Positions 4,264 to 49,352 of a DNA stretch of 64,000 bases are shown piece after piece. Numbering within the stretch: position 1 is the stretch's first letter; each line of letters opens with the position of its first letter. The notes below the pieces were generated by a model that had not been told where the DNA came from, ran no database searches, and worked only from the letters and a program-made list of their open reading frames with translations. Origin of the DNA: a virus (Duplodnaviria; Caudoviricetes). The translations under genes were made by a program, and so were the position numbers. Location of the stretch: positions 8,096 through 72,095 of the IMG/VR virus record IMGVR_UViG_3300030620_000005, one strand, 5' to 3'.

Positions 4264-5157
4264 ATGACCACCGACGACATGCGCAGACTCCTCGACTCCT
4301 GGACCCTCCACCTACGCGCCGAACGCAAAAGCCAGCAGACCGTGAAGACCTACACCGACGGCATCAAACGCTTCATCGCCTGGTGCGAGCGCACCGGCCG
4401 CGAGCCTGACCTCGCACGAGCCGTAGTGAACGCCTTCGTCGCAGATCTCCTCGACGACGGCGCAGAGGCTGCCACGGCCCGCTCTCGACAGTTGTCCCTC
4501 CGCCGGTTCTCCACATGGCTGGCCGAAGAGGGAGAGCTCGACAGCGACCCGCTGGTGGGCCTGAAGCCGCCCAAGCTCGATAGCAAAATTATCCCTGAAC
4601 TATCCGACGACCAGCTCCGCTCGTTGATCAAGGCGTGCGCCGGCAAGGACTTCTGGGAACGCCGCGACGAGGCAATCATCCGACTAATGATCGAGACCGG
4701 GGCGAGGATCGGTGAAGTCGTCGCCATGGAAGTGGACGACATCGACCTGCCCGCCGGCACTGTGATCGTGCGCCGCGGCAAGGGAGGCAAGGGCCGCAGG
4801 GTGCCTATCGGGCCGCAGACGTCTCGCGCGGTTGACCGGTATCTGCGGTTGCGGCGGGCTCACAGGCTTTCCGGGACGCCGGATCTGTGGCTCGGTGACC
4901 GGGGTAAGACGATCGGATATTCGGGTCTCTACGACAGTCTGGTGCGGCGTGCGAGGATCGCGGGTGTTGGGGACTTCCATCCGCATGTGTTGCGGCATAC
5001 GGCGGCTGGGAGGTGGCTTCAGCGGGGTGGGTCGGAGGGGGGGTTGATGGCGGTGGCTGGGTGGTCGCGGCGGGACATGATTGATCGGTATACGCGGGCG
5101 ACGGCGGCGAAGCGTGCTGCTGATGAGGCGCGGGGGCTGAATCTGGGTGATCTTTGA
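4264..5157 (+). CDS. int: Tyrosine integrase/recombinase (XerC-like length, no obvious arm-binding domain)
   Basis: TGARIGE (R), RGKGGKGR (K), HPHVLRHT (H-x-x-R), GW, RY (Tyr) catalytic motifs. Confidence 0.95.
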   Translation: MTTDDMRRLLDSWTLHLRAERKSQQTVKTYTDGIKRFIAWCERTGREPDLARAVVNAFVADLLDDGAEAATARSRQLSLRRFSTWLAEEGELDSDPLVGLKPPKLDSKIIPELSDDQLRSLIKACAGKDFWERRDEAIIRLMIETGARIGEVVAMEVDDIDLPAGTVIVRRGKGGKGRRVPIGPQTSRAVDRYLRLRRAHRLSGTPDLWLGDRGKTIGYSGLYDSLVRRARIAGVGDFHPHVLRHTAAGRWLQRGGSEGGLMAVAGWSRRDMIDRYTRATAAKRAADEARGLNLGDL

Positions 5158-26515: not shown

Positions 26516-29500
26516 TCACCTCCCTCCCGGGTGGACACGACGCGACAGCATCCGCATCACAATCCGTACCGCATCACGCTCGGTCTGCTCCTGCGAGCGG
26601 CCCCACGCAACCGTCGGCCGACCAGCCGCCACCAGCGCCTGCGGCTCACCCGACGCGACACGGGCCCGCATCTTCGGCACCGGGAACCCCGGCACATTCA
26701 CCGCCAGCAACCCCACCAGCCGAAGCTGCCCCCCGATCCGCCGCCAGTCCCCACTGACCTGGCCCGCGGCCTGAAGCTCGTACACCTTCAACGGATCAGC
26801 GCCCGGACGGACCGCGCCCGCGACCCAGATCCCGTGCGCGTCGTTACCCACCGCGACATCGGCGACCGCAGCACCCGTGTTGTCGTAGTGCTCCGCCGCC
26901 GGAGACGCACCCATGTGCAGCGGCGCATGCCCCGTCCCCACAGTGATCTGACCGACCGCCACCCGGCTGCCGTCGTCGCACTTCACCTCACCGGTGCGGT
27001 AGTACGGGTGCTGCTCTTCGTGCGGCGGCTGCACACACACACCTTCCTGCCCGATGTGGCAGGACCCCCACTGCGCGGCATGCCCATAGATCCGGCCATC
27101 ATCCGTCACCGTGATCGGCGTGGGCAACGACAGGCCCGGGTCAGTGAACCAGGCAGTCGGCGGCGCCCATACCGAGCCGGAGGCGGCCAGCGCATGCACG
27201 GACCGAAACGGCTCCGGCTCCCGCCCGGCGTCCCGCAGGTGCGCGGCGACGTGGTCGTACACGCCACGCCGGTCCGCCTCCGGGATCGACGTGCCGCCGC
27301 GGGCGCCGTGCAGGGCGCCGATCGACGCAGAGCAGGCGGCCAGGTTTGCCGCGCCCACGGTGCCATCTGCGCTGATCTCGTGGTGCAGGAATTTCGCCGC
27401 GGACTTCGCCAGTTCGCCAGCCTCGACCGCGTCCCCGTCGTACCAGCCGTACGCGGCCCGCGCCTTGGCCAGCGTCAGCGGCGAGTCGATGCGCTTCTCG
27501 TTCGCGCCCGCGTCCCATGGCTCGTCGGAGGTGGCGGTGTCGTGGGTGCCGACCGCGCCCATCTCCTGCACCGCCAGCGCCAGGACAGCGGTCTCACCGA
27601 CCGGCTGGCCGCCGGCGACGATGGCACCCTGCTCGTCGAGGAGCGCGACGTACGCCTCGGCGAACGCGGGAATGTCGACCAGGGTTGCGGCCCTGATGCG
27701 GCCGCCGTGGAAAATCATCTTCTCGGGCTGCGCGAACAGCATCTCGAACAGATCGTCCTCGTCGCCTTCACCGGCGCCGGCGTTGACGTCGTCGGGCCAC
27801 ACGAACTCGACGTCGGCGTCCGCGATGGAGTCGGCGTCGATGGAGACACCGCGAAGGAACTCACCCTTGAGCTTGTCGTAGGCGCGGCGCCCGTTGTCGT
27901 CGGAGAGGTCGATGACACCAGCACCCATGATCTTGTTGTCGTCGCGCCATATCCGGTCGATGCGGCCGACGTTGACGGCTACGGTGTGGGGCTCGCCGCC
28001 GTGGGAGTCCTCGATGTTCCAGCGCAGCGGGACGGGCAGGTCAGCCCACTGCAGGGCGCCGGGGGCGAACTCGCGGCCGTCGCCGGTGACGATGCCTTCG
28101 ACGGCGAGGACGCCTTCCCACGGGGCCGTGTCGCCCGCGTAGTCGAGGCCGCGCTCGTCGTCGTCTTCGTCGTCGCGTTGCATGCGGTCGCCTTCTTCGG
28201 CGTACAGGGCGGCCTGCTGCTCCATGGCTTCCGCCTCGGTGGCGTGGCAGCCCATGAGTTCGTCGGTCATTTCCTTGATGACGGCCCACGGCGTATCGGC
28301 GCCGCAGTCCGGGTGATCCTGCTGGACGCGATACGGCATCGTGCCCTCCATGTTGGTGGTCTGGTGGGGCATTGTGTCCGCGTTCGCAGACAAGATCATT
28401 CCGGCGGCGGCTTGCTCGTCCGCCTGTGGCCACACCGTCACGAGGGTGCCGCGACAGCGGGAACCGCCGAGGCAGTTGATGTAGCCGCCCGACGGGTACG
28501 CGGTGCGCGCATCGGGCAGCGTGGTGTAGCGGGTTCCGTCGATGTCCCGGCAGGGCTTGCACGTTCGGCCCGGTTCGAGAATCTCGGTGGCTGTGTACTC
28601 GGCTGGCGGCGCGACTGCGAGGACGGCCATGCGGCCTTCGTTCTGCGCCGCGGACATGGCCGCACCCACCTGCTCCTCCACCGCAGCACCCGACAGCCCG
28701 GTGAGATGCTCGTCCACCTGGCCCGCTACCTGCGATGGCGAGCCGGAGCCCCACACGCGCATCGCCTGCCGCACCGCGGACTGCACCAGGCCGACGCCGA
28801 GGACGCTGGCTGCGGTGCGGCCGATCTGCCGCAGCCGGTCCCGGATCGCCGCGGCGGTCAGCGCCTCATCGTCGAGGGACCATTCGGGAATGTCGACGCC
28901 CTGCGCTTCGGCCTCCGCCTGCTGCTGCTCGCCTGCCTCCCGCGCGTAGGCGATCATGCGGGCGATGAGGAGGCGCGCCCCGTCCTCGGTGTCGACGGTC
29001 AGTCCGTCGAGCAGGTCCAAGTTGTCAGCCTCCGCCGCGGCTTGGATGCTGGCGGTGATCTCGGCGCGCATCGCCTCCTGCACGCTGGCCCACGCCTCGA
29101 CCGTGCCGTCTACGGCTTCGTGCCAGGCCTTGTCCATCTGCGTGAAGTCAGCGCGGGACGCGAGTTCGAGTTCGGTGGGCTGGCGGCGCAACGGACCGGC
29201 CGCCGCGGTTCGAGCGGTGGTTCGTGTGCGGCCGGTGACGCGGACGGGGACACCGAGTTCGGCAGCGAGTCCTTCGGCGGCCGTGCACATCGCGTCCAAG
29301 AGCAAGGCGCCGCCGCGGTTGGTCTCCACCTCGACATGGACGACGTCCTCGTCCCACCTCGGGGTGAGGACGCGGGCGGAGGCGGTGACGTCGCCGCCGA
29401 GGGGGATGTCAGTGTGCTCCCCGGCGAACGCCACGCGGACGCGGTCGAAGGTGACCGACCCGAGGCGCTCCTCCAACGCGATGATGAGATCCAGCTCGTC

Positions 29501-29956
29501 GGAGTACGCGGCACAGATGCGCGGCTGCCAGGGCGTGTACTGGTCGGGAAGGTTCTCCGCGTCGAGGACGTTCGCCACCGAGTAACGGGCGGCGTCGTAG
29601 GCGTTCGCCAGTGCAGGTGCTACGGCCGGGCGGCCGTCGCCGCGATCGTCGCCGACGGCCCACACCCACGACGGGGAGTCGCCGTCGGAGTTCCAGTGGT
29701 TCGCGCCGAAGATCCGCGCCTCGATGGGCTGCCCGATCCAGTTGGCGTAGTCGGCGACTTGGTCGATGAGAGCGCGCCGCTCTTCGTCGGTGAACACGCT
29801 GCCGTCGTCGCCGAGGAAGTACAGCGTGCAGTGCAGATCCTCGGCAGCCTCGCCGCCCTCGATCGCCAGCCGCGCCGCGTCCTCCGGCGTGGGCATCAGC
29901 GCAATCATCGCGCCAGAGGTGTGCGAGCCGTCAGCGGCGGCCGTGAGCGAACCCAT
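26516..29956 (-). CDS. Polyprotein: 2H-phosphoesterase-like + MuF-like minor head + two prohead protease domains
   Basis: LHCTL...PWQPRICAAY; CKPC...CLGGSRCRG; SHGG...RGVSID; TGHAP...QVSGDW. Confidence 0.85.
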   Translation of the reverse strand: MGSLTAAADGSHTSGAMIALMPTPEDAARLAIEGGEAAEDLHCTLYFLGDDGSVFTDEERRALIDQVADYANWIGQPIEARIFGANHWNSDGDSPSWVWAVGDDRGDGRPAVAPALANAYDAARYSVANVLDAENLPDQYTPWQPRICAAYSDELDLIIALEERLGSVTFDRVRVAFAGEHTDIPLGGDVTASARVLTPRWDEDVVHVEVETNRGGALLLDAMCTAAEGLAAELGVPVRVTGRTRTTARTAAAGPLRRQPTELELASRADFTQMDKAWHEAVDGTVEAWASVQEAMRAEITASIQAAAEADNLDLLDGLTVDTEDGARLLIARMIAYAREAGEQQQAEAEAQGVDIPEWSLDDEALTAAAIRDRLRQIGRTAASVLGVGLVQSAVRQAMRVWGSGSPSQVAGQVDEHLTGLSGAAVEEQVGAAMSAAQNEGRMAVLAVAPPAEYTATEILEPGRTCKPCRDIDGTRYTTLPDARTAYPSGGYINCLGGSRCRGTLVTVWPQADEQAAAGMILSANADTMPHQTTNMEGTMPYRVQQDHPDCGADTPWAVIKEMTDELMGCHATEAEAMEQQAALYAEEGDRMQRDDEDDDERGLDYAGDTAPWEGVLAVEGIVTGDGREFAPGALQWADLPVPLRWNIEDSHGGEPHTVAVNVGRIDRIWRDDNKIMGAGVIDLSDDNGRRAYDKLKGEFLRGVSIDADSIADADVEFVWPDDVNAGAGEGDEDDLFEMLFAQPEKMIFHGGRIRAATLVDIPAFAEAYVALLDEQGAIVAGGQPVGETAVLALAVQEMGAVGTHDTATSDEPWDAGANEKRIDSPLTLAKARAAYGWYDGDAVEAGELAKSAAKFLHHEISADGTVGAANLAACSASIGALHGARGGTSIPEADRRGVYDHVAAHLRDAGREPEPFRSVHALAASGSVWAPPTAWFTDPGLSLPTPITVTDDGRIYGHAAQWGSCHIGQEGVCVQPPHEEQHPYYRTGEVKCDDGSRVAVGQITVGTGHAPLHMGASPAAEHYDNTGAAVADVAVGNDAHGIWVAGAVRPGADPLKVYELQAAGQVSGDWRRIGGQLRLVGLLAVNVPGFPVPKMRARVASGEPQALVAAGRPTVAWGRSQEQTERDAVRIVMRMLSRRVHPGGR

Positions 29957-31727
29957 TGGAACTCCGGTGGGAGACGGTGGTCAGAAACCCGGTCGTATCC
30001 AGATGCGGGGACAGCCGGCCGATCGTGAGCTGCCCGAACGCAGACAGTCGCGCCTCGTACACGCCGGACGTGCCTGGTCTGGGCAGAGTCGGGAGCTTGA
30101 CCGCGGCGTGTGTGAACGGGCAGGAGTAGGCGTGTGTTGAGCACAGTGCGGGGTGGAGGAGTTCGGGCGGCCGACCGGCGGCGAATCTGACGGCGTGTAG
30201 GGCTTTTGCTTGTTGGGCCATGCGTTCGTCGCGGGCGCGTGCTGCTTCGGCGCGCGCGGCTTCGGCGGGTGGTGGTTCGCTGGGTGTGTCGGGCGGTGTC
30301 CGGTCTTCTGGCTGATCCGTCTCCGGCTCGGTGGTCTGGCCGGGGCGCGCGGCGGCGACGGGTTGGATGGTGACTTGTTCGCCGGTGAGTTCGGTGATGG
30401 CGGATGGGGCTCCGGTGGGGAGGGTGTGGATGACGATCTTGAGGGCTTGTTCCTTCAGCTCGTCGTCGCTGGGTTTGTCGGCTTCGGTGAAGCCGGTTTC
30501 GCGGCGGAGTGCGTCGCCGTTGATTTCGAGGCGGTCGTAGAGCTGGATGGCGTCTTGGCTGCGGTCGGGGCGGAGGGTGAGTTCGGACATGTCGTACCAG
30601 ACGACCCAGCTCGCCCAGTCTTCGACGCGGGAGGCTTGAAGCCGGGGCTGGAGGTAGCCGGTGGTGAGGGCTTGGGCGATGAGTTCGGCGTCGGGGGCGA
30701 CGTTGACTTTCAGGTTGGTTTCGTCACTCAGCCAGCCGTTCCAATGGTTCAAATCGGACATGCCGAGCAGCACTTCGGGTGGGATGTTGAGCTGCGAGGC
30801 GAGGCGTTTGATGGCGCTGTCGCGCTTCTCGATGATCTTGTCGTCGATGCGCAGCGTGAAGTCGAGGTGCTGGAACTTCCCGATCAGTTCTTCCGGCACC
30901 TTGATCGGGATTGGCACGATGGCTGCCGCTGTCCCTGGCGTACGGATCGCCTCAGCAGCGAGCTCGATCCACTCGGCCACGAACGGGTCCGGCGCGTCAG
31001 CGAACTCTTCTCGCACCGGGAAGGTGGCCTCGGACGGAATGAACCACACGCCAGCGCTGGCAAGTCGGCTGAGGTACTGGCTGATGATGTGCCGGTTCAC
31101 CAACTCCAGCTCGCGCATGGTGGTGCGGGCCGCGCGGGCGGGGCTGTCGGCAACATGGTGGTAGCGCTTGTTGGGGCGCCATACCCGGATGGGGGCCATG
31201 GAGTCGGGGGCGAGGGGGCGCCAGTTGTAGCCGTCGCGGGGGTTGTTTTCGTCGATGACTTCGTAGTGGCCGCGTGCTGCGCGTACTTCGTCGATGGACC
31301 GGACAGCCCACTTCTCGATGCCGCCCACGTTTTCGACGATGACGTAGCCCTCACCGGGGACTGCGAGTTGGGTGCCGAGGCCGTTCATGATTTGGGCTTG
31401 TCCGGCGACGCCTCCGGCGAAGGTGGTCATCAGCTCGACGGCGGTGCCTGCTTCGGCGCGTACGGGTTCGTCGGCTCCGGGTTCGAGTTTCGCGGCGTAG
31501 AAGCGGATGCGGGAGAGCATGTTGGCTTCCCAGTCGGCGGCGTATCGGAATTCGCCGAGGTCTGAGTAGTACTGCCAGGCTTCTTCTTGCCAGGTGTCGG
31601 GGGTGCGGATGAGTTCGGTGCGTGGGTTGGTGACGGGGGCTGCGGCGGCGGTGAGGGCGTTGGGTTGTGTGGGCGCGTGCGGGATGGGCGCGGCGCTTCG
31701 TCGGGTGAAGGCGTGCCACCAGGCCAT
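29931..31727 (-). CDS. Portal protein
   Basis: WQEEAWQYY...GEFRYAADW, IRVWRP, NHWNGW; located between terL and the head maturation gene. Confidence 0.9.
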   Translation of the reverse strand: MAWWHAFTRRSAAPIPHAPTQPNALTAAAAPVTNPRTELIRTPDTWQEEAWQYYSDLGEFRYAADWEANMLSRIRFYAAKLEPGADEPVRAEAGTAVELMTTFAGGVAGQAQIMNGLGTQLAVPGEGYVIVENVGGIEKWAVRSIDEVRAARGHYEVIDENNPRDGYNWRPLAPDSMAPIRVWRPNKRYHHVADSPARAARTTMRELELVNRHIISQYLSRLASAGVWFIPSEATFPVREEFADAPDPFVAEWIELAAEAIRTPGTAAAIVPIPIKVPEELIGKFQHLDFTLRIDDKIIEKRDSAIKRLASQLNIPPEVLLGMSDLNHWNGWLSDETNLKVNVAPDAELIAQALTTGYLQPRLQASRVEDWASWVVWYDMSELTLRPDRSQDAIQLYDRLEINGDALRRETGFTEADKPSDDELKEQALKIVIHTLPTGAPSAITELTGEQVTIQPVAAARPGQTTEPETDQPEDRTPPDTPSEPPPAEAARAEAARARDERMAQQAKALHAVRFAAGRPPELLHPALCSTHAYSCPFTHAAVKLPTLPRPGTSGVYEARLSAFGQLTIGRLSPHLDTTGFLTTVSHRSSNGFAHGRR

Positions 31728-31762
31728 TTCGTCTCCCGCGTTCCCTGTGGGTGGGTCTGCGG

Positions 31763-31798
31763 GTGACGGTAGGCACTAGCCGGGGAAGATCATTCCGG
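31763..31798 (-). promoter_or_regulatory. Late-promoter motif copy
   Basis: CCGGAATGATC-N15-CTACCGTCAC upstream of the portal gene. Confidence 0.75.
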
Positions 31799-31816
31799 GC
31801 GTGGGACGATGACCGC

Positions 31817-32275
31817 ATGGCCCACACCCAGAACTTCACCGGCGTCCTCGCCGTCCTCCACAAGGCCACATCCGACGGGCGACGCCTCGACGACCCGAAC
31901 CCGGAACTCACCTGCCCCCTGCCGATCCCTCTCATGACGGAAGACGGCAGCCCTGCTGGCCGCATCGACCGCGTGTGGCGCGACGAGGACCTGATCCGCT
32001 ACAGCGGGCGCCTTCTCTCGGAAACGGCTCAGGCACTCGTCGACGCCAAGCTTGTCGTGGGCAATCTCGACGCCTACGCAGCGCAGTGGGACAACCGATA
32101 CAAGGGCCTCGTCGTGGACGACGGTGTGCCTCTGGACGCCGACCCGTCCGACTTCGAGATGATCGCGCACGACTGGCTCATCGCAGGCGCCACGCTGGGA
32201 CCGTCGTACAGGAAGGCGTGGCCGGAAGTGTCGCTCACCTTGGACGACGCCGATCCGCAGCACGGTGAGGCATGA
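31817..32275 (+). CDS. Stand-alone paralog of the prohead protease domain lacking catalytic His/Ser
   Basis: FTGVLAV..ATSDGR..LPIPL..GRIDRVWRD..IAGATL aligns by eye with WEGVLAV..VTGDGR..LPVPL..GRIDRIWRD..IRAATL of the polyprotein. Confidence 0.75.
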   Translation: MAHTQNFTGVLAVLHKATSDGRRLDDPNPELTCPLPIPLMTEDGSPAGRIDRVWRDEDLIRYSGRLLSETAQALVDAKLVVGNLDAYAAQWDNRYKGLVVDDGVPLDADPSDFEMIAHDWLIAGATLGPSYRKAWPEVSLTLDDADPQHGEA

Positions 32276-32304
32276 CCGAGCAGGAAGCCTAACTGATCAT
32301 CCGC

Positions 32305-32514
32305 ATGGAGATGGCCTTCGCGGACGAAGGCATCGGACCGAAGCACCTTGTCGTGGACGGCGAATACGTGATGCCGGACAAGGCAGACAAGGAAGTCCGG
32401 AGCGAAGCCGTCCGGGTGGCTGGGCATCTGTTCGACGAGCACTACGACCTGTGGGACATCGGTCTCGTGCCGGACGAGGCGCACTTCCCCCGCTGCATCA
32501 AGCATCGCCACTGA
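32305..32514 (+). CDS. Small acidic hypothetical protein
   Basis: 69-aa ORF with natural composition. Confidence 0.55.
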   Translation: MEMAFADEGIGPKHLVVDGEYVMPDKADKEVRSEAVRVAGHLFDEHYDLWDIGLVPDEAHFPRCIKHRH

Positions 32515-32734
32515 GCATGTGAGGGAGCCGCCTGCGGAACGCCCGAACGCAGACGGCCCCCACCCCACCACAAGAGCCCGGGGGGAACCGGCCCTCACCG
32601 TCACCATCCCACGCCTGAGACCGCACCCATTCCGAACGCGCGAGAGCCGCCTGCCCGTACCCCTACGGCAGACGGCACCAGACGAGGCCCATGCTCTGGC
32701 GGGCGGGCCTCGTACCCATGACGCGCCCCAGACG

Positions 32735-32932
32735 CTACGCCCACGCCAACTCGGCCGGTTCCATCATCGGATCGGCATCCGCCTCGTCCAGCCAAAAATC
32801 AAGATGCGGCTGGCAGAGAAAAACACTGTGCCCGTGATAGAGCCCCAGCCTGGCGACAACCGGCCCGCAGTCAATGTGATCCGGAGCCACGCACGGGCAT
32901 CCCGTACTGGTGTGATCGTGGAGGCACTTCAC
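32735..32932 (-). CDS. Small Cys/His-rich protein
   Basis: GTG 32932 overlaps the upstream stop; CPC...C...FLCQPH. Confidence 0.55.
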   Translation of the reverse strand: MKCLHDHTSTGCPCVAPDHIDCGPVVARLGLYHGHSVFLCQPHLDFWLDEADADPMMEPAELAWA

Positions 32933-33105
32933 GCCCGCTCCTGCTCCCGCCGCGAAGAGCCCTCGGCGCCCCAACCGCGCGGCGGCCGCGCGTCAGACGT
33001 CTCGTTGAAGTCGTACTTGTAGTAGTAGCCCGCACCAGCAGTGATCAGGTGTCCCGTCTCGGGATCGATGCGCGGCGCCCGGTAGTACCGCTTCTCAATC
33101 GGCAT
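32929..33105 (-). CDS. Small hypothetical protein (58 aa, absent from the ORF track)
   Basis: MPIEKRYYRAP...; coupled to the downstream gene. Confidence 0.5.
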   Translation of the reverse strand: MPIEKRYYRAPRIDPETGHLITAGAGYYYKYDFNETSDARPPRGWGAEGSSRREQERA

Positions 33106-33114
33106 GCCCAGATC

Positions 33115-33549
33115 CTAAGCCCACTCCTGCGCCGCGAGCAGCGCCCCGACCGCCCACACCGCAGGCCACACCAGCAACGGCACCGGCAGCCCCACCGACG
33201 CCCACACACCGCCCGTCACCGCGAGAGCCACCCAGCCGGACGCGCACCACGGGCACGACAGCAACTCCGCCAACCAGAACGGCGACCGCTTCCACCGACG
33301 GGCATAGATCTGCAACTCGCCATCAACCAGGCTGAACATGCCTAGACCCCGGACGTTCTTCAGGACGCCCTCGTCGACTTCGCCTGTCGGGAACGCCTCG
33401 TGGTGCTGCTCCTTCATCGTCGGCTCACGCCAGCCGCCGACGAGCCGGTCACGCAGCCACAGCACGGGCGGAAAAGTGTCGGCCACAACGAGCCGCGTAA
33501 GCCGGTACACCGCGAGCGACATCACGAGCAGCAGCAACCAAGTCTCCAT
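33115..33549 (-). CDS. DUF1360-like membrane protein
   Basis: LAVYRLTRLVVADTFPP...LSCPWCASGW; ATG 6 nt after TACGTT. Confidence 0.78.
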   Translation of the reverse strand: METWLLLLVMSLAVYRLTRLVVADTFPPVLWLRDRLVGGWREPTMKEQHHEAFPTGEVDEGVLKNVRGLGMFSLVDGELQIYARRWKRSPFWLAELLSCPWCASGWVALAVTGGVWASVGLPVPLLVWPAVWAVGALLAAQEWA

Positions 33550-33553
33550 GCCG

Positions 33554-35953
33554 TCAACGTACGCGCCCGCCAACAATCTGCTTTCTGGCCAGATCGCCAC
33601 CCAACGAACCCTGACCACGCGACGCCGTCCCCACCAACTTCAGATGCCACGCGGTCCACACGCAGTTGTGCACGAGGATTCCGTTCGCATAGAACTCGTG
33701 CTCACCCTCGATCGTCAGGTCGTACACGGGCTGCCTTGTTTCGAGCGCGGAGATGCGCTCCACACGAGTTCGAGCACGTCGCCGGAACCGGCTGATACTT
33801 GCTCTGCATGAACTCCCCTCCGCAGATCGGGCAGTTCGCCGGCTTGCGATACCGGTCAGCGCGGTCAGCAACACGACGCATGCACGCAGGAGAGCAGTAC
33901 CGCGACTCCTTGAAGCCGCGCGTCTCGTAAGGCCTGTCACATGCTTGGCAGACCTCCGTGCGGTACTCCTGCTTGGCGTAGACATCCTTGCCGTGCTGTC
34001 GATGCCACTCGCGTCCCTCATCGCTGCTGTGCCACTCGGCAGCCATGGGGCGAATGCTCGCCAGGTGCTCCAGCCATTCCGGGCTATCGAGGTCCCGTTC
34101 GTGTTCGTGGAGCAGGGCGTGCTCCTTGCGGGTGACGCACCGGAGGTTGCTGGACTCGTTGTTGAGCGGGTTGAAGTCCACGTGGTGGATGACATGGCCG
34201 CGAGGAACTTCGTCAGCGCCGTTCGCAGCCTTCCAGACCTCGACGTGGAGCTGACCCATCCTGGGTATGCGCCGGCTGTTCGCGTAGGCAGTGAAGTAGA
34301 CCCTCGACGAGCGACTCTTCGACAGAGGGAAACGAGTGAACGTGATGCCGTTGAAAACGACCGACTCAGTCTGTTTGGGCATACGTCAATTCTATCGCCC
34401 CAGACCATCTCATCCACTCGAATGAACCCATTTTGTTCGGTCCATACCTTGTGATCTGGAGTGGCCGTGAACGCCCCGGCCGTCGTCACGACACGCATCA
34501 CCTCAGCGCTCGGACGCGTCATGCCAGACCACGTCACACGGCGCCACCCGGCCCGCGTCCACGCCAAGTCGTCCGTCGTCACCTCCTCAATCGGGATCTG
34601 CCCGCGACGGGTAGTGACCAGAGTCCCGGCAACAAGGCACGCGTCCAATCGGTCCGGTGACCAGCCCGCTTCCGGGTACCAGGTCGCCATCTGGTCCTCC
34701 AGCTTCGGGAACTCGCCGGCGTGGTGCCACCTGTTCTGTGCAGTGAGCGCCGCCACGGGCTCCGCTCGCACCGCCTTGCCCCTGGTCGCGGTGACCGTGC
34801 GGATCGGAATGTCCACGCCGAGCGCGTCGGCCGCCGTGCGCAGCGTCGCGACGGCCATGTCCCCTCCAAAATTTCGCTCTACGACCAAGTCGTCTGCTTC
34901 CCAGTCGATCGCGGCCTGCACCGCGCGCCGGCCCCATCCGTCGGGCGACAACTGGCAGGACCGGTCGTCGAGGACGTAGCCGTGATGCTGCGGCCGGCCG
35001 CCATCCCCAGGAAGTACGAGGCCGGACTTCCCGACCACGACGATGCCCTGCTCCCCGGCGCCGCCGGACGGGTCGACGCCGACGGTGATTCGTACGAGGT
35101 CGGGTACGTCGCCGGGCCGTACGCGCGCTTCGTCGATCATCGTGTGTTGCCAGAGCGCGTTCTCGTCTTCTTCGATCAGCTCGCCGTACAGTTCCTGACG
35201 GCCGAGCTGCGTGCCCGCATACCGTTCCTCGAGGGAGGCTTTGATGTCCTCGGAGATGTGCGGGTTGTCGCGGTAACTGGCGTGCGTCAGCATGACGTTC
35301 GCGACCGCTCCGGAGTGCAACTGCTTGATGAGCGGCTTCGGCTTCGGCGTGGTCGAGGCGACCCAGTGCGGGCGCGGGCCGACACGGAGGCCGAACCGCA
35401 TGTGGTCCCAGGCGTCGTCGAGGTGCCGCCACGCCGCCAACTCCTCCAGCCACGCGAGGCATCGGTTACCGCCGGACCGTAGGCGGTCGACGTCGTTGGG
35501 TCCTTCCGTGCCGAAGATCTTCGCCTCGGATCCGTTGGGCCAGCGGACGATGGTGCTGCCCTTGACGGTGGCGAGCTTCGCTTCTGGGCTGTGGACGCTC
35601 AGCCCGGATGGCCCGGAGAAGCAGGAGGTGACGGCGTCGCCTTGGGTGGGGCCGATGATGGCGATCCAGTGCGGGATCGGGCCGGGTAGGCAGGGCGGTC
35701 CGTGGACGTGCTGGTGGACGTACGCGGCACACGCGTCCGTCTTGCCCGCCATCCTGCCGGCGAGCAACAGCCACCCGTAGAAGTCGCCGGGCGGCGGCAC
35801 CTGGTGGGGAAGCGGAGTCCACCTGGGTTTCGTCAGCGCGTCGTAGAGGCTGCCCACGTCCGCAGCCGATCGGATAGCGGCCTCCGCGAATTCGGCGCGC
35901 GTGTTCCCCCGCTCCTGCTGGAGTGGGAAGAAGCTTTCCCAGTCGACGCCCAT
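33554..35953 (-). CDS. terL: Terminase large subunit (intein-containing; start uncertain, the frame stays open to 36094)
   Basis: AGRMAGKT (Walker A), WLEEL (Walker B), STTPKP, VGVDPS, ERNFGG, RGKAVRAEP, SPDRLDA|CVW. Confidence 0.93.
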   Translation of the reverse strand: MGVDWESFFPLQQERGNTRAEFAEAAIRSAADVGSLYDALTKPRWTPLPHQVPPPGDFYGWLLLAGRMAGKTDACAAYVHQHVHGPPCLPGPIPHWIAIIGPTQGDAVTSCFSGPSGLSVHSPEAKLATVKGSTIVRWPNGSEAKIFGTEGPNDVDRLRSGGNRCLAWLEELAAWRHLDDAWDHMRFGLRVGPRPHWVASTTPKPKPLIKQLHSGAVANVMLTHASYRDNPHISEDIKASLEERYAGTQLGRQELYGELIEEDENALWQHTMIDEARVRPGDVPDLVRITVGVDPSGGAGEQGIVVVGKSGLVLPGDGGRPQHHGYVLDDRSCQLSPDGWGRRAVQAAIDWEADDLVVERNFGGDMAVATLRTAADALGVDIPIRTVTATRGKAVRAEPVAALTAQNRWHHAGEFPKLEDQMATWYPEAGWSPDRLDACLVAGTLVTTRRGQIPIEEVTTDDLAWTRAGWRRVTWSGMTRPSAEVMRVVTTAGAFTATPDHKVWTEQNGFIRVDEMVWGDRIDVCPNRLSRSFSTASRSLVSLCRRVARRGSTSLPTRTAGAYPGWVSSTSRSGRLRTALTKFLAAMSSTTWTSTRSTTSPATSGASPARSTPCSTNTNGTSIARNGWSTWRAFAPWLPSGTAAMRDASGIDSTARMSTPSRSTARRSAKHVTGLTRRAASRSRGTALLRACVVLLTALTGIASRRTARSAEGSSCRASISRFRRRARTRVERISALETRQPVYDLTIEGEHEFYANGILVHNCVWTAWHLKLVGTASRGQGSLGGDLARKQIVGGRVR
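33665..34639 (-). mobile_element. Intein (325 aa) in the TerL nuclease domain
   Basis: Begins CLVAGT, block B ATPDHKVW, ends PVYDLTIEGEHEFYANGILVHN followed by Cys+1; removal restores DRLDACVW. Confidence 0.95.
33702..34382 (-). CDS. HNH homing endonuclease encoded in an alternative frame inside the intein
   Basis: LHVEVW...IHHVDFNPLNNESSNLRCVTRKEH; two CxxC...C zinc repeats; own ATG 6 nt after TAGAAT. Confidence 0.9.
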   Translation of the reverse strand: MPKQTESVVFNGITFTRFPLSKSRSSRVYFTAYANSRRIPRMGQLHVEVWKAANGADEVPRGHVIHHVDFNPLNNESSNLRCVTRKEHALLHEHERDLDSPEWLEHLASIRPMAAEWHSSDEGREWHRQHGKDVYAKQEYRTEVCQACDRPYETRGFKESRYCSPACMRRVADRADRYRKPANCPICGGEFMQSKYQPVPATCSNSCGAHLRARNKAARVRPDDRG

Positions 35954-36104
35954 GGTCGGATTGTGGCTGCTGTTCGAGGGTGTGCTGTCCGGAGCGGGGG
36001 TTGGTTGTTGTCTCGTACGCTGGCCGTGCGCCAGGGCCTCATGTCCCTCATTGACCCGTGGGCGCCCCCGGGAAGAAGCGCAAAGGGGCGCCACTCAGCG
36101 GCGG

Positions 36105-45718: not shown

Positions 45719-46102
45719 TCAGGCGGCCTCCGCGTAGCGGGAGGCGAGCAGGTGCTGCGTGCCCTTGTAGCTGTAGAGGCCCTCGTACAGCGCCTCGTCG
45801 ACGACCCCGTAGGCGTAGACGTGAATCCAACGGCCGGTGGTGCGGTGCTGCGTCCAGACCTTGACGGTGTCGCCGCCGTTCGCCGCGCGGTAGGCCTTCG
45901 CCACGTGCCGGCCGAACCAGCTCTTCACGCCGTCCTTCAGATCTCCGCCGCCGACCCGCTCCAGGAAGTCGCCGGTCCGCACGAGCCGGCCGGCTTCGAC
46001 GGCTGCGGCGATGTGGCCGGAGAGGGTGCGGTAGCCGAGGGCCTTGGTGGTGCGGACCGCGGTGCGGAGGGTGTTGCGGCGGGTGCGGGTCTTGGCGTTC
46101 AT
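45719..46102 (-). CDS. Basic hypothetical protein
   Basis: 127 aa; first gene after a consensus promoter. Confidence 0.7.
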   Translation of the reverse strand: MNAKTRTRRNTLRTAVRTTKALGYRTLSGHIAAAVEAGRLVRTGDFLERVGGGDLKDGVKSWFGRHVAKAYRAANGGDTVKVWTQHRTTGRWIHVYAYGVVDEALYEGLYSYKGTQHLLASRYAEAA

Positions 46103-46133
46103 CTCGGGGTCCCCTCGTTGCGGTGATACCTAC

Positions 46134-46177
46134 ATGGTAGGCCTACCGCATTACGCATGTCAACTAGACTAGGCCTA
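46134..46177 (-). promoter_or_regulatory. TTGACA-N18-TACCAT promoter overlapped by palindrome GGTAGGCCTACC (46136-46147), with a second TAGGCCTA at 46170-46177
   Basis: Consensus -35 (46163-46158) and -10 (46139-46134) read directly from the sequence. Confidence 0.72.
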
Positions 46178-46198
46178 TCCAATGAGGCAAACTGGGGG

Positions 46199-46433
46199 TA
46201 TGCCCACCACCGCCGAACTCACAGCCATCCGTACCCGCTACGAGGAAGCCGTCGCCGCCGCCGAAGCCGAACGCACCGCCGCCGTGAAGGCGGCCCTCGC
46301 CGCTGGCACCCCGCAGAAGGACCTCGTCGACGCCACCGGCTACACGCGCGAAACTCTGCGCCGGATCGCCAACCCCGAGGCAGCCGAGGCCATCCGCAAC
46401 GCCCGCCGGACGAAGAAGGAGCAGACCGCATGA
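46199..46433 (+). CDS. Small HTH regulator, probably leaderless
   Basis: TPQKDLVDATGYTRETLRRI; ATG 6 nt after CAAACT. Confidence 0.75.
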
Positions 46434-49352
46434 GCTACCGCCCGTACCCCAACCCGACCCGCGCCCGTCACCAGATCGAGCGCCACGACGACGAGACCCC
46501 TCCGCTGCCGGACGGTTCGGGGCGTCCGCTCTCGCCGTTCGAGCAGCACGTCATGGCGGGCGTGGAGGGTATGGGTGAAGCGCTGCGCCCGCAGTTGGAA
46601 GCGATGGGCAGGTCCCTGCTCGCCGCGTTCCGGCCGCGCCCGGCGAGCAGCGAGGAGAAGACCGCATGAGCACCGTCTACACCGTCGACGAACTCTCGAC
46701 CATGCACAGATGCCCAGGACGAAGCGACTTCTCCACCGAAGAGGCATACCAACTGACCGCAGGAACGTACTTCGCGTTGATGCGTGAACGCGTACTCACC
46801 AAGGCCGAGACGACTGCCCGCCGTGAGGCATTGGCCGACATCTACGCCGGCAACGGACACGTGATCGCGTTCGACTATTGCGGGACTCCCATCAAGCGCG
46901 GCGACACGGTCCGGGCGTGGCGGCACGGGAAAGGCTTCGGCTGCGTCGTGCGGTTGGTGGACAGTCACCGCCTCTCTGATGATGTGAACAGCCCGTTCAG
47001 GGTCGAGCTTGTGCGCTGTGATGACGGCGTTGAGGTGGAGCGTTGGTCGGACCAGGTTCAGAGTGAGGAGACGAGCACATGAGCGACAACGCCACCCCCG
47101 AGCCCGAGCCGCAGCCCCTCTCCGGGAAAGACATGGAACGCCTGCTGCTCCTCGCCGACTGGAGTGGACCGGCCCCTGCCGAGGCGCTGGGCTGGACGGA
47201 ACGGACGTTGGACGAGGCGTTTGAGCGGAACAACGCGGAGTTGAGGCGAGCAGCCGAGCGGCTCAGTGAGCGCCCGACGACCGGCGAGGAGCAGACCGGA
47301 TGAGCGCAGCGACGCCCGTACCAGGCACGACCCGCTACCTGTGCCCCCTCGAATGCGGCTGGCACCACGACGTCCCGCCAGTCAGCCTTGAGCGGCTCGC
47401 CGAACTGGGCGCCGCCATCGACCCGGCCGTGGACGTCAGCGACGTGACCTCGTTTGCGCGCCAGGCGTACCTCGCGGAGGCGCGGCAGACGGATGCCGTG
47501 GCGCGGGAGCATCTGGCCACGCACACGACGGAGCAGTTCGTACGGACGATCCAGGTCCTGCGTGCCGAGGTGGCCGCGCTTCGGGACCGCCCGACCAGCA
47601 GCGAGGATGCGACCGAGTGAGCGCCCTACGCCCCGCCACGCTCGACGAATACCTGACCTGGCTACGCGCCTGGCTCACGCCCTGCCGGCCACCCACGCAC
47701 GCCTACGACTACCCGTGGTCCCGGTGGACGTGGCTCACCGCCACCCGCGACTTCACGCTCGGCGGGGAGTGCGGGGCGAACGCTGTGCACATCCTCGTGC
47801 CTGACGGAATCGACTACGCGCGCGGCGACATCGGACACAACGAGCTGTACTTCATGAACGGCCCCGTGCAGTGCGGCGGCCTGGTGCCGGTGTTCTCCGA
47901 CCCGGTGTTCCAGTCGCTGCCTGGTGTGCCGGAGTTCATCGCGGCTGAGCGGCTGAAGGAGGCCGCGTGGATGCGGGAGCAGGATGAGGCCGAAGAGCAG
48001 CGGCGACGGATGGCGGCAGACAGCGACGTGCCCCGGTGCGCCTGGTGAGCGGCGAGGAGACGAGCAGGCGAGAGTGGAAGCCGGGCGAGACGATCGGCCC
48101 GCAGGACTTCGGGACCACCCCCGCCGGCCCCAACCCGATCGGTGATGCGATGAAGCGGGATCTGGCGCGCCGGGCTGACGAGATGCTCGCGCAGCGAGGA
48201 GGCAAACGGATGAGCCGCGAGCACGTCCTCTCCCACCTCTACGTCATCTTCTACGACAACCAGCAAGGCCTCGGCCTCTGCGGCTGCGGCAACCCCGAAG
48301 CCGCCTACGACCTCATCCGAGACCTCCTCAGCCTCGCCCCCTTCTACGAAGACTCCCGCTGGAAGACCGCCGAATCCCTGACCGGGAACATCCCCGGCGC
48401 GCACCACATCGTCCTCGGTGCCATGGACCGAGCCGGGCTGATCGAGCACGGATCGAGCCAGAACGGGGCGTGGCTCACGGACAAGGGCGAGTGGTGCCTG
48501 GCCGCTATGCGGACGGCGGAATTCGACGACCTCGATCAGCACGGCTATCCGCACGATGGTGAGGCGTGCACGGACGCCTGCTGGCGCCTACCCGCTGAGG
48601 AGCGCACATGACCGACACGATCCGTCGCCGTAGCCTCCCCGACAGCCTCCGATGGCTCGCCGACAAACTCGACTCCGGCACCCTCACCGACGCCGAGACA
48701 GCCGGGGTCGCGCTGACGCTGCACTCCCTCGCCGAAGAAGTCGTGAGCGTCAACCGATGCGTGTCCGTCGGCGGGCACGACCGAAGGTGCGAACTCGGAA
48801 GCGGCCACGGCGGCTTGCACGAGAACAACGAGTTCTTCGGACTGAAGTGGGCCAACCATCCCGGAGACCCGGCAGACGCGGGCCCGGTGCGCCCGGGCGA
48901 GGAGACCACCACATGAGCTGGTCGAAGCCCTACTACACCCCGGCCGAGGGCGTGCAGGACCGGGAAGCCTTCCGCGCGATGCTCGCCCGTCTCAACATCG
49001 ACAGCCACATCACGGTCAACGGGACGATCGCCATCGACCAGGCCGGGATGGAGCAGTTGGCCGCCTGGTTCGCCGAGCATGGCGACATGGTCCAGGCCGA
49101 CGCGATTCAGCGGGCAATCGACGAGGAGCCCACACTATGAGCGACCCACTCAACTTCCTGATCAAGCTCCGGAAGTGCCTCAAGCCAGACTGCATGCGCA
49201 AGGTCAAGGAAAACGTGGCGTACTGCTGCTCACCCTGCGCCACGGCCGCAGACGGCAAATACGAGATCCACGAACACAGCGAGTGGTGCGACAAGCGCAA
49301 CGACGAGCGTGGAGAGTGCGACGAGTACGAAGCGCTCCTGCTGAGGCAGTAA
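46430..49352 (+). other. Translationally coupled run of about 9-10 small hypothetical genes (46430-46669, 46666-47082, 47079-47303, 47300-47620, 47617-48048, 48045-48611, 48608-48916, 48913-49140, 49137-49352)
   Basis: Successive ATGA/GTGA overlaps, most preceded by GAGGAG-like Shine-Dalgarno sequences. Confidence 0.75.

What the first reader, a model, noticed from the sequence alone, without database searches (positions are those of the whole stretch)
31817..32275. Antisense-encoded, catalytically dead copy of the phage's own prohead protease domain
Seen: this plus-strand gene between terL and portal aligns by eye with protease domain 1 of the polyprotein, but the SHGG His loop is replaced by TEDGSP and RGVSID by VVGNLD. 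It is transcribed divergently from the portal late promoter, with the two promoter regions back to back. Inference: a decoy or dominant-negative inhibitor of head maturation, made in lysogeny against related phages or used to time assembly. I know of no described system of this kind.
Basis: partly seen in the sequence, partly recalled or inferred. Interest (0 to 1): 0.72.

Follow-up and report, generated by a model that had tools for sequence, protein, structure and literature searches.

The report
Dead head-protease look-alike, accessory phage gene
A temperate Streptomyces-type phage carries a small, well-conserved gene whose product has the fold of the phage head-maturation protease but lacks the catalytic serine and histidine; relatives fuse this dead domain to DNA-binding domains, so it is probably a binding or regulatory module, though its job is unknown.

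Summary
31817-32275(+) is a real 152-aa gene, supported by its codon-position GC pattern, 54 homologue clusters, and a dN/dS like that of the portal gene. It is homologous over the whole domain to protease domain 1 of the phage's MuF/protease polyprotein: BLASTP E 3e-7, and profile hits to long actinophage proteases down to 5e-12. The AF2 model (pLDDT 86) matches VZV protease (Z 9.4), T4 gp21 (Z 9.1) and HK97-type prohead proteases. The Ser kept in 100/101 active relatives and the His kept in 87/101 are both absent.

Three points need correcting.
- It is not a recent copy of the phage's own protease. It belongs to an old clade of small dead proteases, also found in an integrase-less Microbacterium phage.
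- It overlaps no gene, so it is divergent rather than antisense.
- Truncated "cryptic" prohead-protease paralogues were already reported in giant phages in 2017, and this scan noted similar genes in other genomes.

One result is new here. Several relatives fuse the dead domain behind HTH, antitoxin-type HTH, RHH-like or zinc-ribbon modules. In the two fusions whose DNA was examined, the gene heads an operon next to operator-like repeats.

The decoy-in-lysogeny idea remains untested. A non-catalytic binding or regulatory role fits better.

The parts
31817..32275 (+). P0001: 152-aa stand-alone prohead-protease-fold protein that lacks the catalytic Ser and His
31728..31816 (.). 89-bp divergent intergenic region between the portal ATG (31727, minus strand) and the P0001 ATG. 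Its core, GGTAGG...AAGATCATTCCGG, is conserved in three related loci
31788..31798 (-). Copy of the minus-strand motif CCGGAATGATC, the putative late promoter element in front of the portal gene
   Evidence: 4 exact copies plus one with one mismatch, all on the minus strand, about 1 expected
32272..32514 (+). Partner gene 'ORF69'. Its ATG at 32272 overlaps the P0001 stop codon (ATGA). An in-frame TAA lies at 32290-32292, and a 69-aa ORF runs from ATG 32305. Relatives are 77-84 aa
32515..32734 (.). Convergent intergenic region with predicted hairpins (about 32527-32557 and 32646-32676). The + cassette and the minus-strand genes downstream of terL presumably end here
   Evidence: z-score -1.6, not significant on its own; no T-tract terminator found
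27587..28150 (-). Protease domain 1 of the LigT-MuF-protease polyprotein (residues about 603-790), the active homologue with candidate His H652/H657 and Ser705
29931..31727 (-). Portal gene, divergent neighbour of P0001
   Evidence: phrog_776, E 1e-121
46182..46433 (+). Unfused 83-aa HTH-like first gene of the main + strand operon. Its family is fused N-terminally to the dead protease domain in P0045. Operator-like TAGGCCTA repeats lie just upstream (about 46130-46185)

Best explanation
P0001 is a stand-alone pseudo-protease. It has a complete HK97/assemblin-type prohead-protease fold and is related to the protease domain of actinophage MuF-protease polyproteins. It has lost the serine nucleophile and the histidine base, and it has no capsid-targeting tail. 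This part is shown.

It is an accessory, movable gene of a temperate Streptomyces-type phage lineage. It always sits in short operons read against the late genes. This part is also shown.

Inferred: it acts by binding rather than cutting. It keeps the other near-invariant residues of the active enzymes: the DGR motif, the Asp after the lost Ser, Thr758 and Gly680. The likeliest partners are therefore what the real protease binds, namely itself or its head-protein substrates. In several relatives the domain is fused behind DNA-binding modules; the two fusion loci whose DNA was read head an early operon beside operator-like repeats. Its most likely role is therefore a protein-binding sensor, adaptor or oligomerisation module in the phage's regulatory circuitry, not a head component.
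For: Real gene under selection:
- Codon-position GC pattern.
- 54 homologue clusters with 31 invariant columns.
- dN/dS of 0.26-0.35 in close pairs, against 0.22-0.34 for portal and polyprotein by the same method.

Fold and homology:
- AF2 model with pLDDT 86.
- VIA-align: VZV protease Z 9.4, T4 gp21 Z 9.1, HCMV protease Z 7.1; unrelated chains score <=5.
- Foldseek against PDB: the top hits are all herpesvirus proteases.
- BFVD: 108 hits at E<=1e-3, mostly prohead proteases.
- ESM Atlas: TM 0.68-0.78 to Peptidase_S78 and MuF-fusion clusters.
- Profile search: long proteases down to E 5e-12.

Loss of catalysis with the rest kept.

Old separate clade.

Context: nine loci, each a short island read against the flanking genes, in at least four different genome positions.

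Fusions to DNA-binding modules:
- P0033 N-terminus matches phrog_686 'HTH DNA binding protein', E 1.9e-6.
- P0045 matches HTH_23 at 3.9e-5 and phrog_7061.
- P0303 matches phrog_1381 'antitoxin with HTH domain', E 2.9e-5.
- P0047 has a zinc-ribbon N-terminus, phrog_15307.
- P0028, P0029 and P0053 have an RHH-like N-terminus.
- P0029 was found on two independent contigs.
- In the two fusion loci fetched (P0029 and P0045) the fused gene is first in its operon, next to repeated palindromic motifs.
- The same HTH family is a separate gene upstream of the dead protease in L021 and heads the window's own + operon.
Against: - No binding partner, expression datum or phenotype is available.
- All HTH matches are below Pfam's curated cut-offs, and the RHH assignment rests on topology only.
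- The window's own copy is not fused and sits far from the HTH gene.
- Fusion of neighbouring genes can arise without functional coupling.
- The conserved placement beside the portal promoter in four loci would also fit an assembly-related or lysogeny-expressed role.
Confidence: 0.45

Rival explanations
1. The prophage makes a dominant-negative decoy that poisons head maturation of superinfecting related phages, by heterodimerising with their protease or by occupying their cleavage sites.
For: - The phage is temperate. It has a tyrosine integrase at 4264-5157, and homologous elements lie inside 749-kb, 183-kb and 284-kb Streptomyces contigs.
- The gene is read against the late operon, like many genes expressed from prophages (general knowledge).
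- The gene is accessory: 54 clusters against at least 848 clusters for the polyprotein's protease domain.
- The target protease domain is 80-100% conserved across the lineage, so one decoy could hit many relatives.
Against: - A decoy would also poison the phage's own, nearly identical protease on induction.
- Related dead proteases sit in the early or middle gene run of a complete Microbacterium phage genome with no tyrosine integrase.
- In other relatives the gene lies in, or is fused to the first gene of, an early-type operon.
- There are no expression data.
Confidence: 0.2
2. Anti-defence mimic. The dead protease imitates the real prohead protease and traps a host immune sensor that recognises that protein or its activity. 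This would parallel DSAD1, which mimics the tail-tube protein to block DSR2.
For: - Precedent for a virion-protein mimic: PMC10973363.
- Prohead-protease mutations let phages escape Type I CBASS (10.1101/2023.05.21.541620).
- The location in early or accessory operons, and faster divergence between sublineages (dN/dS up to 0.7), fit an arms-race gene.
Against: - No defence system sensing S78-type proteases is known in actinobacteria.
- Fusion to DNA-binding domains is not expected for a simple decoy.
- Nothing here tests it.
Confidence: 0.12
3. Self-directed assembly modulator. It binds the polyprotein's protease domain or its cleavage sites, to delay activation until proheads are built.
For: - It retains the non-catalytic conserved residues of the active enzymes.
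- It sits next to the portal promoter in four related loci.
Against: - Most relatives of this phage lineage lack the gene, so it is not needed for assembly.
- It has no capsid-targeting extension.
- It is not in the late transcription direction and has no late-promoter motif on its strand.
Confidence: 0.1
4. It has no function (a decaying duplicate), or it is still a hydrolase that uses other residues.
For: His15 is invariant within the close subfamily.
Against: - Purifying selection is comparable to that on essential genes, and there are 31 invariant columns across sequences down to 42% identity.
- No Ser or Cys is invariant.
- His15 is not conserved in the wider set of small proteins, where it is His in 11/51.
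Confidence: 0.05

Closest known systems
HK97 gp4-type prohead serine proteases (MEROPS S78, Pfam PF04586), specifically the protease domain of actinophage 'capsid maturation protease and MuF-like fusion' proteins
   Same: Same fold, with sequence homology over the whole domain. Shared motifs include W/F-x-G-V-L-A, DGR, LP-x-PL, G-R-I-D-R-x-W and a C-terminal A-T-L...A-F/W-P-E.
   Different: No Ser nucleophile and no His. The His loop is shortened. There is no MuF, scaffold or capsid-targeting part. It is encoded outside and against the head operon. It does not match the Pfam model.
'Cryptic' prohead-protease paralogues of giant phages (SPN3US gp117, 201phi2-1 gp206, PhiPA3 gp143; PMC5694885)
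   Same: A second, short (about 136-145 aa), strongly diverged paralogue of the prohead protease in the same genome. It is presumed inactive and its function is unknown.
   Different: Those are of the T4 gp21 lineage, in lytic jumbo myoviruses. gp117 keeps the aligned Ser and Asp, with no aligned His (a His lies seven residues upstream). No fusions to DNA-binding domains are reported. Sequence relatedness to P0001 was not tested here.
Herpesvirus assemblin and T4 gp21 (PDB 1vzv, 5jbl)
   Same: Best structural matches: Z 9.4 and 9.1, with 108-113 aligned residues at rmsd 2.6-2.8.
   Different: 7-16% identity. P0001 lacks the catalytic residues and most of the helices of the herpes enzymes.
LexA / lambda CI architecture (HTH plus S24 peptidase domain). 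This is an analogy for the fused relatives only
   Same: An N-terminal DNA-binding domain followed by a protease-fold domain, in a phage regulator at a divergent promoter.
   Different: A different, unrelated peptidase fold. The S24 domain is catalytically active (self-cleaving), while this one is dead. The window's own copy is unfused.
DSAD1, the tail-tube mimic that blocks DSR2 (PMC10973363)
   Same: A phage accessory protein that resembles one of the phage's own virion proteins.
   Different: For P0001 no host target is known and no evidence of anti-defence activity exists.

Membership tests
HK97-type prohead protease (S78 / PF04586, assemblin fold) | Assemblin / prohead-protease fold | tested here: met
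   VIA-align Z 9.4 (VZV protease) and 9.1 (T4 gp21), with unrelated chains <=5. BFVD prohead proteases at E down to 4e-9. ESM Atlas PF04586 clusters at TM 0.68-0.70.
HK97-type prohead protease (S78 / PF04586, assemblin fold) | Match to the curated family model PF04586 | tested here: not met
   No Pfam family even at E<=10, for P0001 or for the polyprotein's domain 1. The link rests on a profile search against long proteases and on structure.
HK97-type prohead protease (S78 / PF04586, assemblin fold) | Catalytic serine nucleophile | tested here: not met
   The column holds Ser in 100/101 long homologues. P0001 and its family have a gap, Asn or Leu there.
HK97-type prohead protease (S78 / PF04586, assemblin fold) | Catalytic histidine | tested here: not met
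   His is present in 87/101 long homologues (the column of H657). P0001's loop is shortened and contains no His.
HK97-type prohead protease (S78 / PF04586, assemblin fold) | Capsid-targeting or scaffold extension (or fusion to MuF or capsid protein), and a place in the head operon | tested here: not met
   The protein ends about 10 residues after the domain. It is encoded on the opposite strand to the portal, polyprotein and capsid genes.
Cryptic prohead-protease paralogues of giant phages (SPN3US gp117 type) | A second, short, diverged paralogue of the prohead protease in a genome that also has the active enzyme | tested here: met
   Definition taken from PMC5694885.
Cryptic prohead-protease paralogues of giant phages (SPN3US gp117 type) | Descent from the T4 gp21-type (S77/S80) protease of jumbo phages | tested here: inconclusive
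   The nearest sequence relatives are actinophage MuF-protease fusions, not gp21-type enzymes. gp117 itself was not compared.
Prophage-expressed superinfection-exclusion gene | Transcribed in the lysogen and protective against incoming phages | not testable with these tools
   Only indirect evidence: an integrase is present, the gene is on the opposite strand, and it is accessory. No sigma-70-like promoter was found.
Transcription regulator with a protease-fold C-terminal domain | A DNA-binding domain in the same polypeptide | tested here: not met
   P0001 has no such domain. Relatives P0033, P0045, P0303, P0028/29/53 and P0047 do. The window's HTH gene is separate, at 46182-46433.

The most novel reading that the evidence does not exclude
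The dead prohead-protease domain is a sensor of head proteins that is wired to gene control. On its own, or fused to HTH or RHH modules at the phage's divergent early promoter, it would detect build-up of the protease or its capsid and scaffold substrates, from its own or an incoming phage. It would then switch transcription (timing, immunity or abortive defence). This would be a capsid-sensing regulator built from the capsid protease itself.
Probability: 0.15. Interest if true: 0.8.

Novelty: new variant of a known kind. Interest (0 to 1): 0.5.

Why it matters
Inactive copies of the head-maturation protease turn up in very different phages: jumbo phages in a 2017 paper, several other windows of this scan, and here a Streptomyces-type temperate siphovirus and a Microbacterium phage. 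Nobody knows what they do. This lineage offers three handles on the question.
- The family is small and conserved.
- The host group is tractable in the laboratory.
- Natural fusions to DNA-binding domains beside operator-like repeats predict a testable activity.

If the domain senses or blocks head proteins, it would be a new way for phages to regulate themselves, compete with relatives or evade immunity.

Tried and rejected
Searches that gave nothing:
- Pfam on P0001 and on both C-terminal polyprotein domains: no hit even at E<=10.
- PDB sequence searches with the family profile and with domain 1: chance hits only.
- Megablast of the 6.2-kb region against phage records: no match.
- tblastn of P0001 against phages: only weak hits to Arthrobacter phage proteases.
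- tblastn of P0189 against phages: nothing.
- Sigma-70 promoter and T-tract terminator scan of 31400-33700: no promoter, and no + strand terminator.
- Inverted-repeat finder in the divergent intergenic region: none.
- Genus-wide search centred on the Streptomyces loci: those genomes are not held.
- Pattern scan of 185,579 species genomes: only two loci. IMG/VR: two small homologues.
- Literature searches for pseudo-protease, inactive paralogue or dominant-negative protease in phages: nothing direct. The SPN3US paper surfaced, and earlier scan notes pointed to it.

Readings rejected:
- Recent duplication of the phage's own protease: rejected by the tree and by distances that do not track the polyprotein's.
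- Decaying pseudogene: rejected by conservation and dN/dS.
- An alternative catalytic site: no invariant Ser or Cys, and His15 is specific to the subfamily.
- ORF69 as an informative partner: it has 16 unnamed homologue clusters and no domain.

Full report
WHAT IS THERE

The window is part of a 72-kb IMG/VR virus record with 65-72% GC. Most genes run on the minus strand. Around the finding the order is as follows.
- terL with an intein, 36094-33554 (Terminase_6N, Intein_splicing).
- A DUF1360 gene, 33618-33115.
- Two small minus-strand ORFs.
- Two plus-strand ORFs: 31817-32275 (P0001, 152 aa) and 32305-32514 (ORF69).
- Portal, 31727-29931 (phrog_776, E 1e-121).
- A 1146-aa polyprotein, 29956-26516.
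- The major capsid protein, 26409-24538 (phrog_777).

The polyprotein has an N-terminal LigT-like part, a MuF-like part, and two C-terminal regions that PHROGs label head maturation protease.

A tyrosine integrase lies at 4264-5157. Homologous elements lie inside 749-kb, 183-kb and 284-kb Streptomyces contigs. The phage is therefore temperate and Streptomyces-associated.

IS THE GENE REAL?

Yes.
- GC at codon positions 3/1/2 is about 0.85/0.68/0.45 across the ORF. That is the pattern of a plus-strand gene, not of a minus-strand shadow.
- 54 clusters of homologues (126-258 aa) were found. Most begin at the same M-x-T-x-x-F-T-G-V-L-A-V-L-H motif. A 24-sequence alignment reaching down to 42% identity has 31 invariant columns.
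- A crude Nei-Gojobori dN/dS is 0.26-0.35 for the closer pairs. The essential portal and polyprotein genes give 0.22-0.34 between the same phages. Between sublineages it rises to 0.5-0.7.

IS IT A PROTEASE HOMOLOGUE?

Yes, over the whole domain.

Sequence evidence:
- BLASTP against the polyprotein gives E 3e-7, 38% identity over 72 aa, P0001 4-64 against polyprotein 610-680.
- Both proteins hit phrog_21470.
- tblastn finds only 'capsid maturation protease (and MuF-like fusion)' genes of Arthrobacter phages.
- A profile of the family, searched against 1.84 billion representatives, gives 213 hits. These are small stand-alone proteins plus many 450-2000-aa proteins, matched over profile positions about 5-148 with whole-library E down to 5e-12.

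Structure evidence:
- The AlphaFold2 model has pLDDT 86 and pTM 0.77.
- Its best solved matches are VZV protease (Z 9.4), T4 gp21 (Z 9.1) and HCMV protease (Z 7.1). Unrelated chains score 5 or less.
- Foldseek's top PDB hits are all herpesvirus proteases.
- In BFVD, 108 matches reach E<=1e-3, mostly HK97-type prohead proteases and MuF fusions.
- The ESM Atlas gives TM 0.68-0.78 to Peptidase_S78 and MuF-fusion clusters.

Pfam itself recognises neither P0001 nor the polyprotein domain, so the lineage is remote from the curated S78 model.

IS IT DEAD?

I aligned 152 domains from the profile hits.
- The 101 long proteins keep Ser at polyprotein position 705 in 100 cases.
- They keep a His in the column of H657 in 87 cases.
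- The 51 small proteins mostly lack both, and P0001 lacks both.

From memory, the HK97 spacing of His65 to Ser114 is 49 residues. That fits H657 to S705 (48 residues) better than H652. The loop alignment is uncertain, but P0001 has no His anywhere in the shortened loop.

No Ser or Cys is invariant in the family. His15 is invariant only in the close subfamily, and is His in 11/51 of the wider set.

The other near-invariant residues of the active enzymes are kept: D626 and R628 (101/101), G680 (101/101), D707 (93/101) and T758 (95/101). So the scaffold around the active site is preserved while the chemistry is gone. This is usual for pseudoenzymes that still bind something.

NOT A RECENT COPY

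In a maximum-likelihood tree P0001 sits in a clade of 21 small proteins (SH-aLRT 96), inside a set of 40 of which 39 are small (SH-aLRT 97). The window's own protease clusters with other long proteases.

Distances among dead paralogues do not track those of the polyproteins in the same phages.

Some small proteins nest among active proteases. Independent origins or long-branch effects therefore cannot be separated; well-supported branches force at least 5 changes.

P0036 (locus L007) shares its first 24 residues exactly with P0001 and then diverges. This suggests mosaic recombination.

CONTEXT

Nine loci of the close family were inspected. In every one the gene lies in a short island read against the flanking genes. 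It is usually the last or next-to-last gene of that island (first of two in the window), and the position varies.
- Between portal and DUF1360/terL: the window, S. canus L001 and L007; probably also L020, whose contig ends just past the gene.
- In a three-gene cassette with an HTH-like gene and an XRE-type HTH gene: L005.
- At the end of an eight-gene operon that includes an Endonuclease VII gene: L002.
- Next to the capsid gene: L009.
- After an HTH gene and a Cys-rich gene: L021.

The upstream neighbours in L002 and L009 are homologues of window genes at 47.3-48.0 kb, in the window's main plus-strand operon.

The family is rare. It has 54 clusters, against at least 848 for the polyprotein's protease domain. 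Only two loci were found in 185,579 species genomes.

More distant small dead proteases occur in Microbacterium phages, for example Cressida gp73, which was the top BFVD hit. There the gene lies in the right-arm run of small genes, on the same strand as everything else. That complete genome has no tyrosine integrase.

FUSIONS, THE MAIN NEW LEAD

Several relatives carry N-terminal extensions that are recognisable modules.
- P0033 matches phrog_686 'HTH DNA binding protein' (E 1.9e-6).
- P0045 matches HTH_23 (3.9e-5) and phrog_7061.
- P0303 matches phrog_1381 'antitoxin with HTH domain' (2.9e-5).
- P0047 has a zinc-ribbon module (phrog_15307, 2e-7).
- P0028, P0029 and P0053 share an extension with ribbon-helix-helix-like topology. 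The AF2 model shows a disordered stretch at 1-16, two helices, a long helix, and then the protease-like domain at 78-229, with pLDDT 75.

All Pfam HTH scores are below the curated cut-offs.

P0029 is found on two independent contigs. In both fused loci examined, the fused gene is the first gene of an operon. It diverges from a minus-strand gene; in L023 that gene is a homologue of window 45719-46102, in L025 of a gene in L021. The intergenic region has repeated palindromic motifs.

The window has the same arrangement, with an unfused 83-aa HTH-like gene at 46182-46433 and TAGGCCTA repeats upstream. In L021 this HTH family is a separate gene upstream of the dead protease.

At least four different DNA-binding-type modules joined to the same dead domain argue that the domain works together with DNA-binding proteins.

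PROMOTER CLAIM

The motif CCGGAATGATC occurs 4 times exactly and once with one mismatch, always on the minus strand, against about 1 expected. One copy is at 31788-31798, 19 nt from the P0001 ATG.

The motif and a GGTAGG element are invariant in the equivalent intergenic regions of L001, L007 and L020. So the back-to-back arrangement with the portal promoter is real and conserved.

No plus-strand promoter could be shown. When P0001 is expressed is unknown.

INTERPRETATION

Shown: a conserved, selected, catalytically dead, stand-alone prohead-protease-fold protein. It is accessory and mobile, and it belongs to an old actinophage family.

Inferred: it works by binding. The best-supported role is a protein-binding or oligomerising module tied to the phage's regulatory genes. 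Head proteins, meaning the protease or its substrates, are the natural candidate ligands.

The rivals remain open.
It would also hit the phage's own nearly identical protease, and it does not explain the integrase-less phage or the fused relatives.
- An anti-defence mimic has precedents: DSAD1 (PMC10973363), and the link between prohead protease and CBASS escape (10.1101/2023.05.21.541620).
- A self-directed timing factor is unlikely, because most relatives lack the gene.

PRIOR KNOWLEDGE

Ali et al. 2017 (PMC5694885) reported a truncated, diverged, 'presumably no longer active' paralogue of the prohead protease in SPN3US (gp117) and other giant phages. Its function is unknown.

Earlier notes of this scan report comparable dead mini-proteases in other genomes, including what looks like the same 152-aa family in another phage.

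The kind is therefore known, though obscure. The S78-like actinophage lineage, its conserved seat beside the portal promoter, and the fusions to DNA-binding modules are the new elements.

Noticed in passing
window 32272-32514: ORF69's relatives are 77-84 aa. In the window the conserved reading frame starts at ATG 32272, overlapping the P0001 stop codon (ATGA). It hits an in-frame TAA at 32290-32292, and a 69-aa ORF resumes at ATG 32305. This is either a nonsense mutation with possible re-initiation, or a sequencing error. The gene order is swapped relative to L007 and L011, where ORF69 comes first.
   Followed up: partly
window 28394-28404 (minus strand): An exact copy of the late-promoter-like motif CCGGAATGATC lies inside the polyprotein gene, at about codon 518, upstream of the protease domains. 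It could be an internal promoter that yields a shorter protease-only product.
   Followed up: no
window 26516-27196 (polyprotein residues about 921-1146): The second C-terminal domain gives the best PHROG 'head maturation protease' match (phrog_18402). It shows only weak language-model similarity (0.87) to T4-type Peptidase_S77/S80 clusters. The dead-protease profile does not match it. Whether the polyprotein has two proteases is open.
   Followed up: partly
window 32735-33105 (minus strand): Two small unannotated minus-strand ORFs lie between DUF1360 and the plus-strand cassette. One (about 65 aa) is rich in Cys and His and looks metal-binding.
   Followed up: no
window 32527-32557 and 32646-32676: Two similar GC-rich hairpins, both starting GCCGCCTGC and ending GCAGACGGC, lie in the convergent intergenic region. 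Neither has a T-tract. The fold z-score of the region is only -1.6.
   Followed up: partly
window 46103-46199: Operator-like repeats (CCTACATGGTAGG, and TAGGCCTA twice) lie in the divergent region ahead of the HTH-like gene at 46182-46433. Similar CTAGACTAGGCC repeats precede the HTH-dead-protease fusion in L025.
   Followed up: partly
window 46182-49352 (plus strand): Genes of the plus-strand operon mostly overlap by ATGA. Many products end in an acidic E-E-x-T-x tail, which encodes the next gene's ribosome-binding site. P0001 and many of its relatives end the same way, which suggests translational coupling.
   Followed up: no
L007 8001-8414 versus window 31817-31888: P0036 shares its first 24 residues exactly with P0001, but the rest is only about 50% identical. 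This is a recombination mosaic within the gene.
   Followed up: no
window 33554-36094 (minus strand): The large terminase carries an intein (Intein_splicing and Hint_2 matches). Its homologues in L001, L005 and L007 are 454-469 aa and appear to lack an intein.
   Followed up: no
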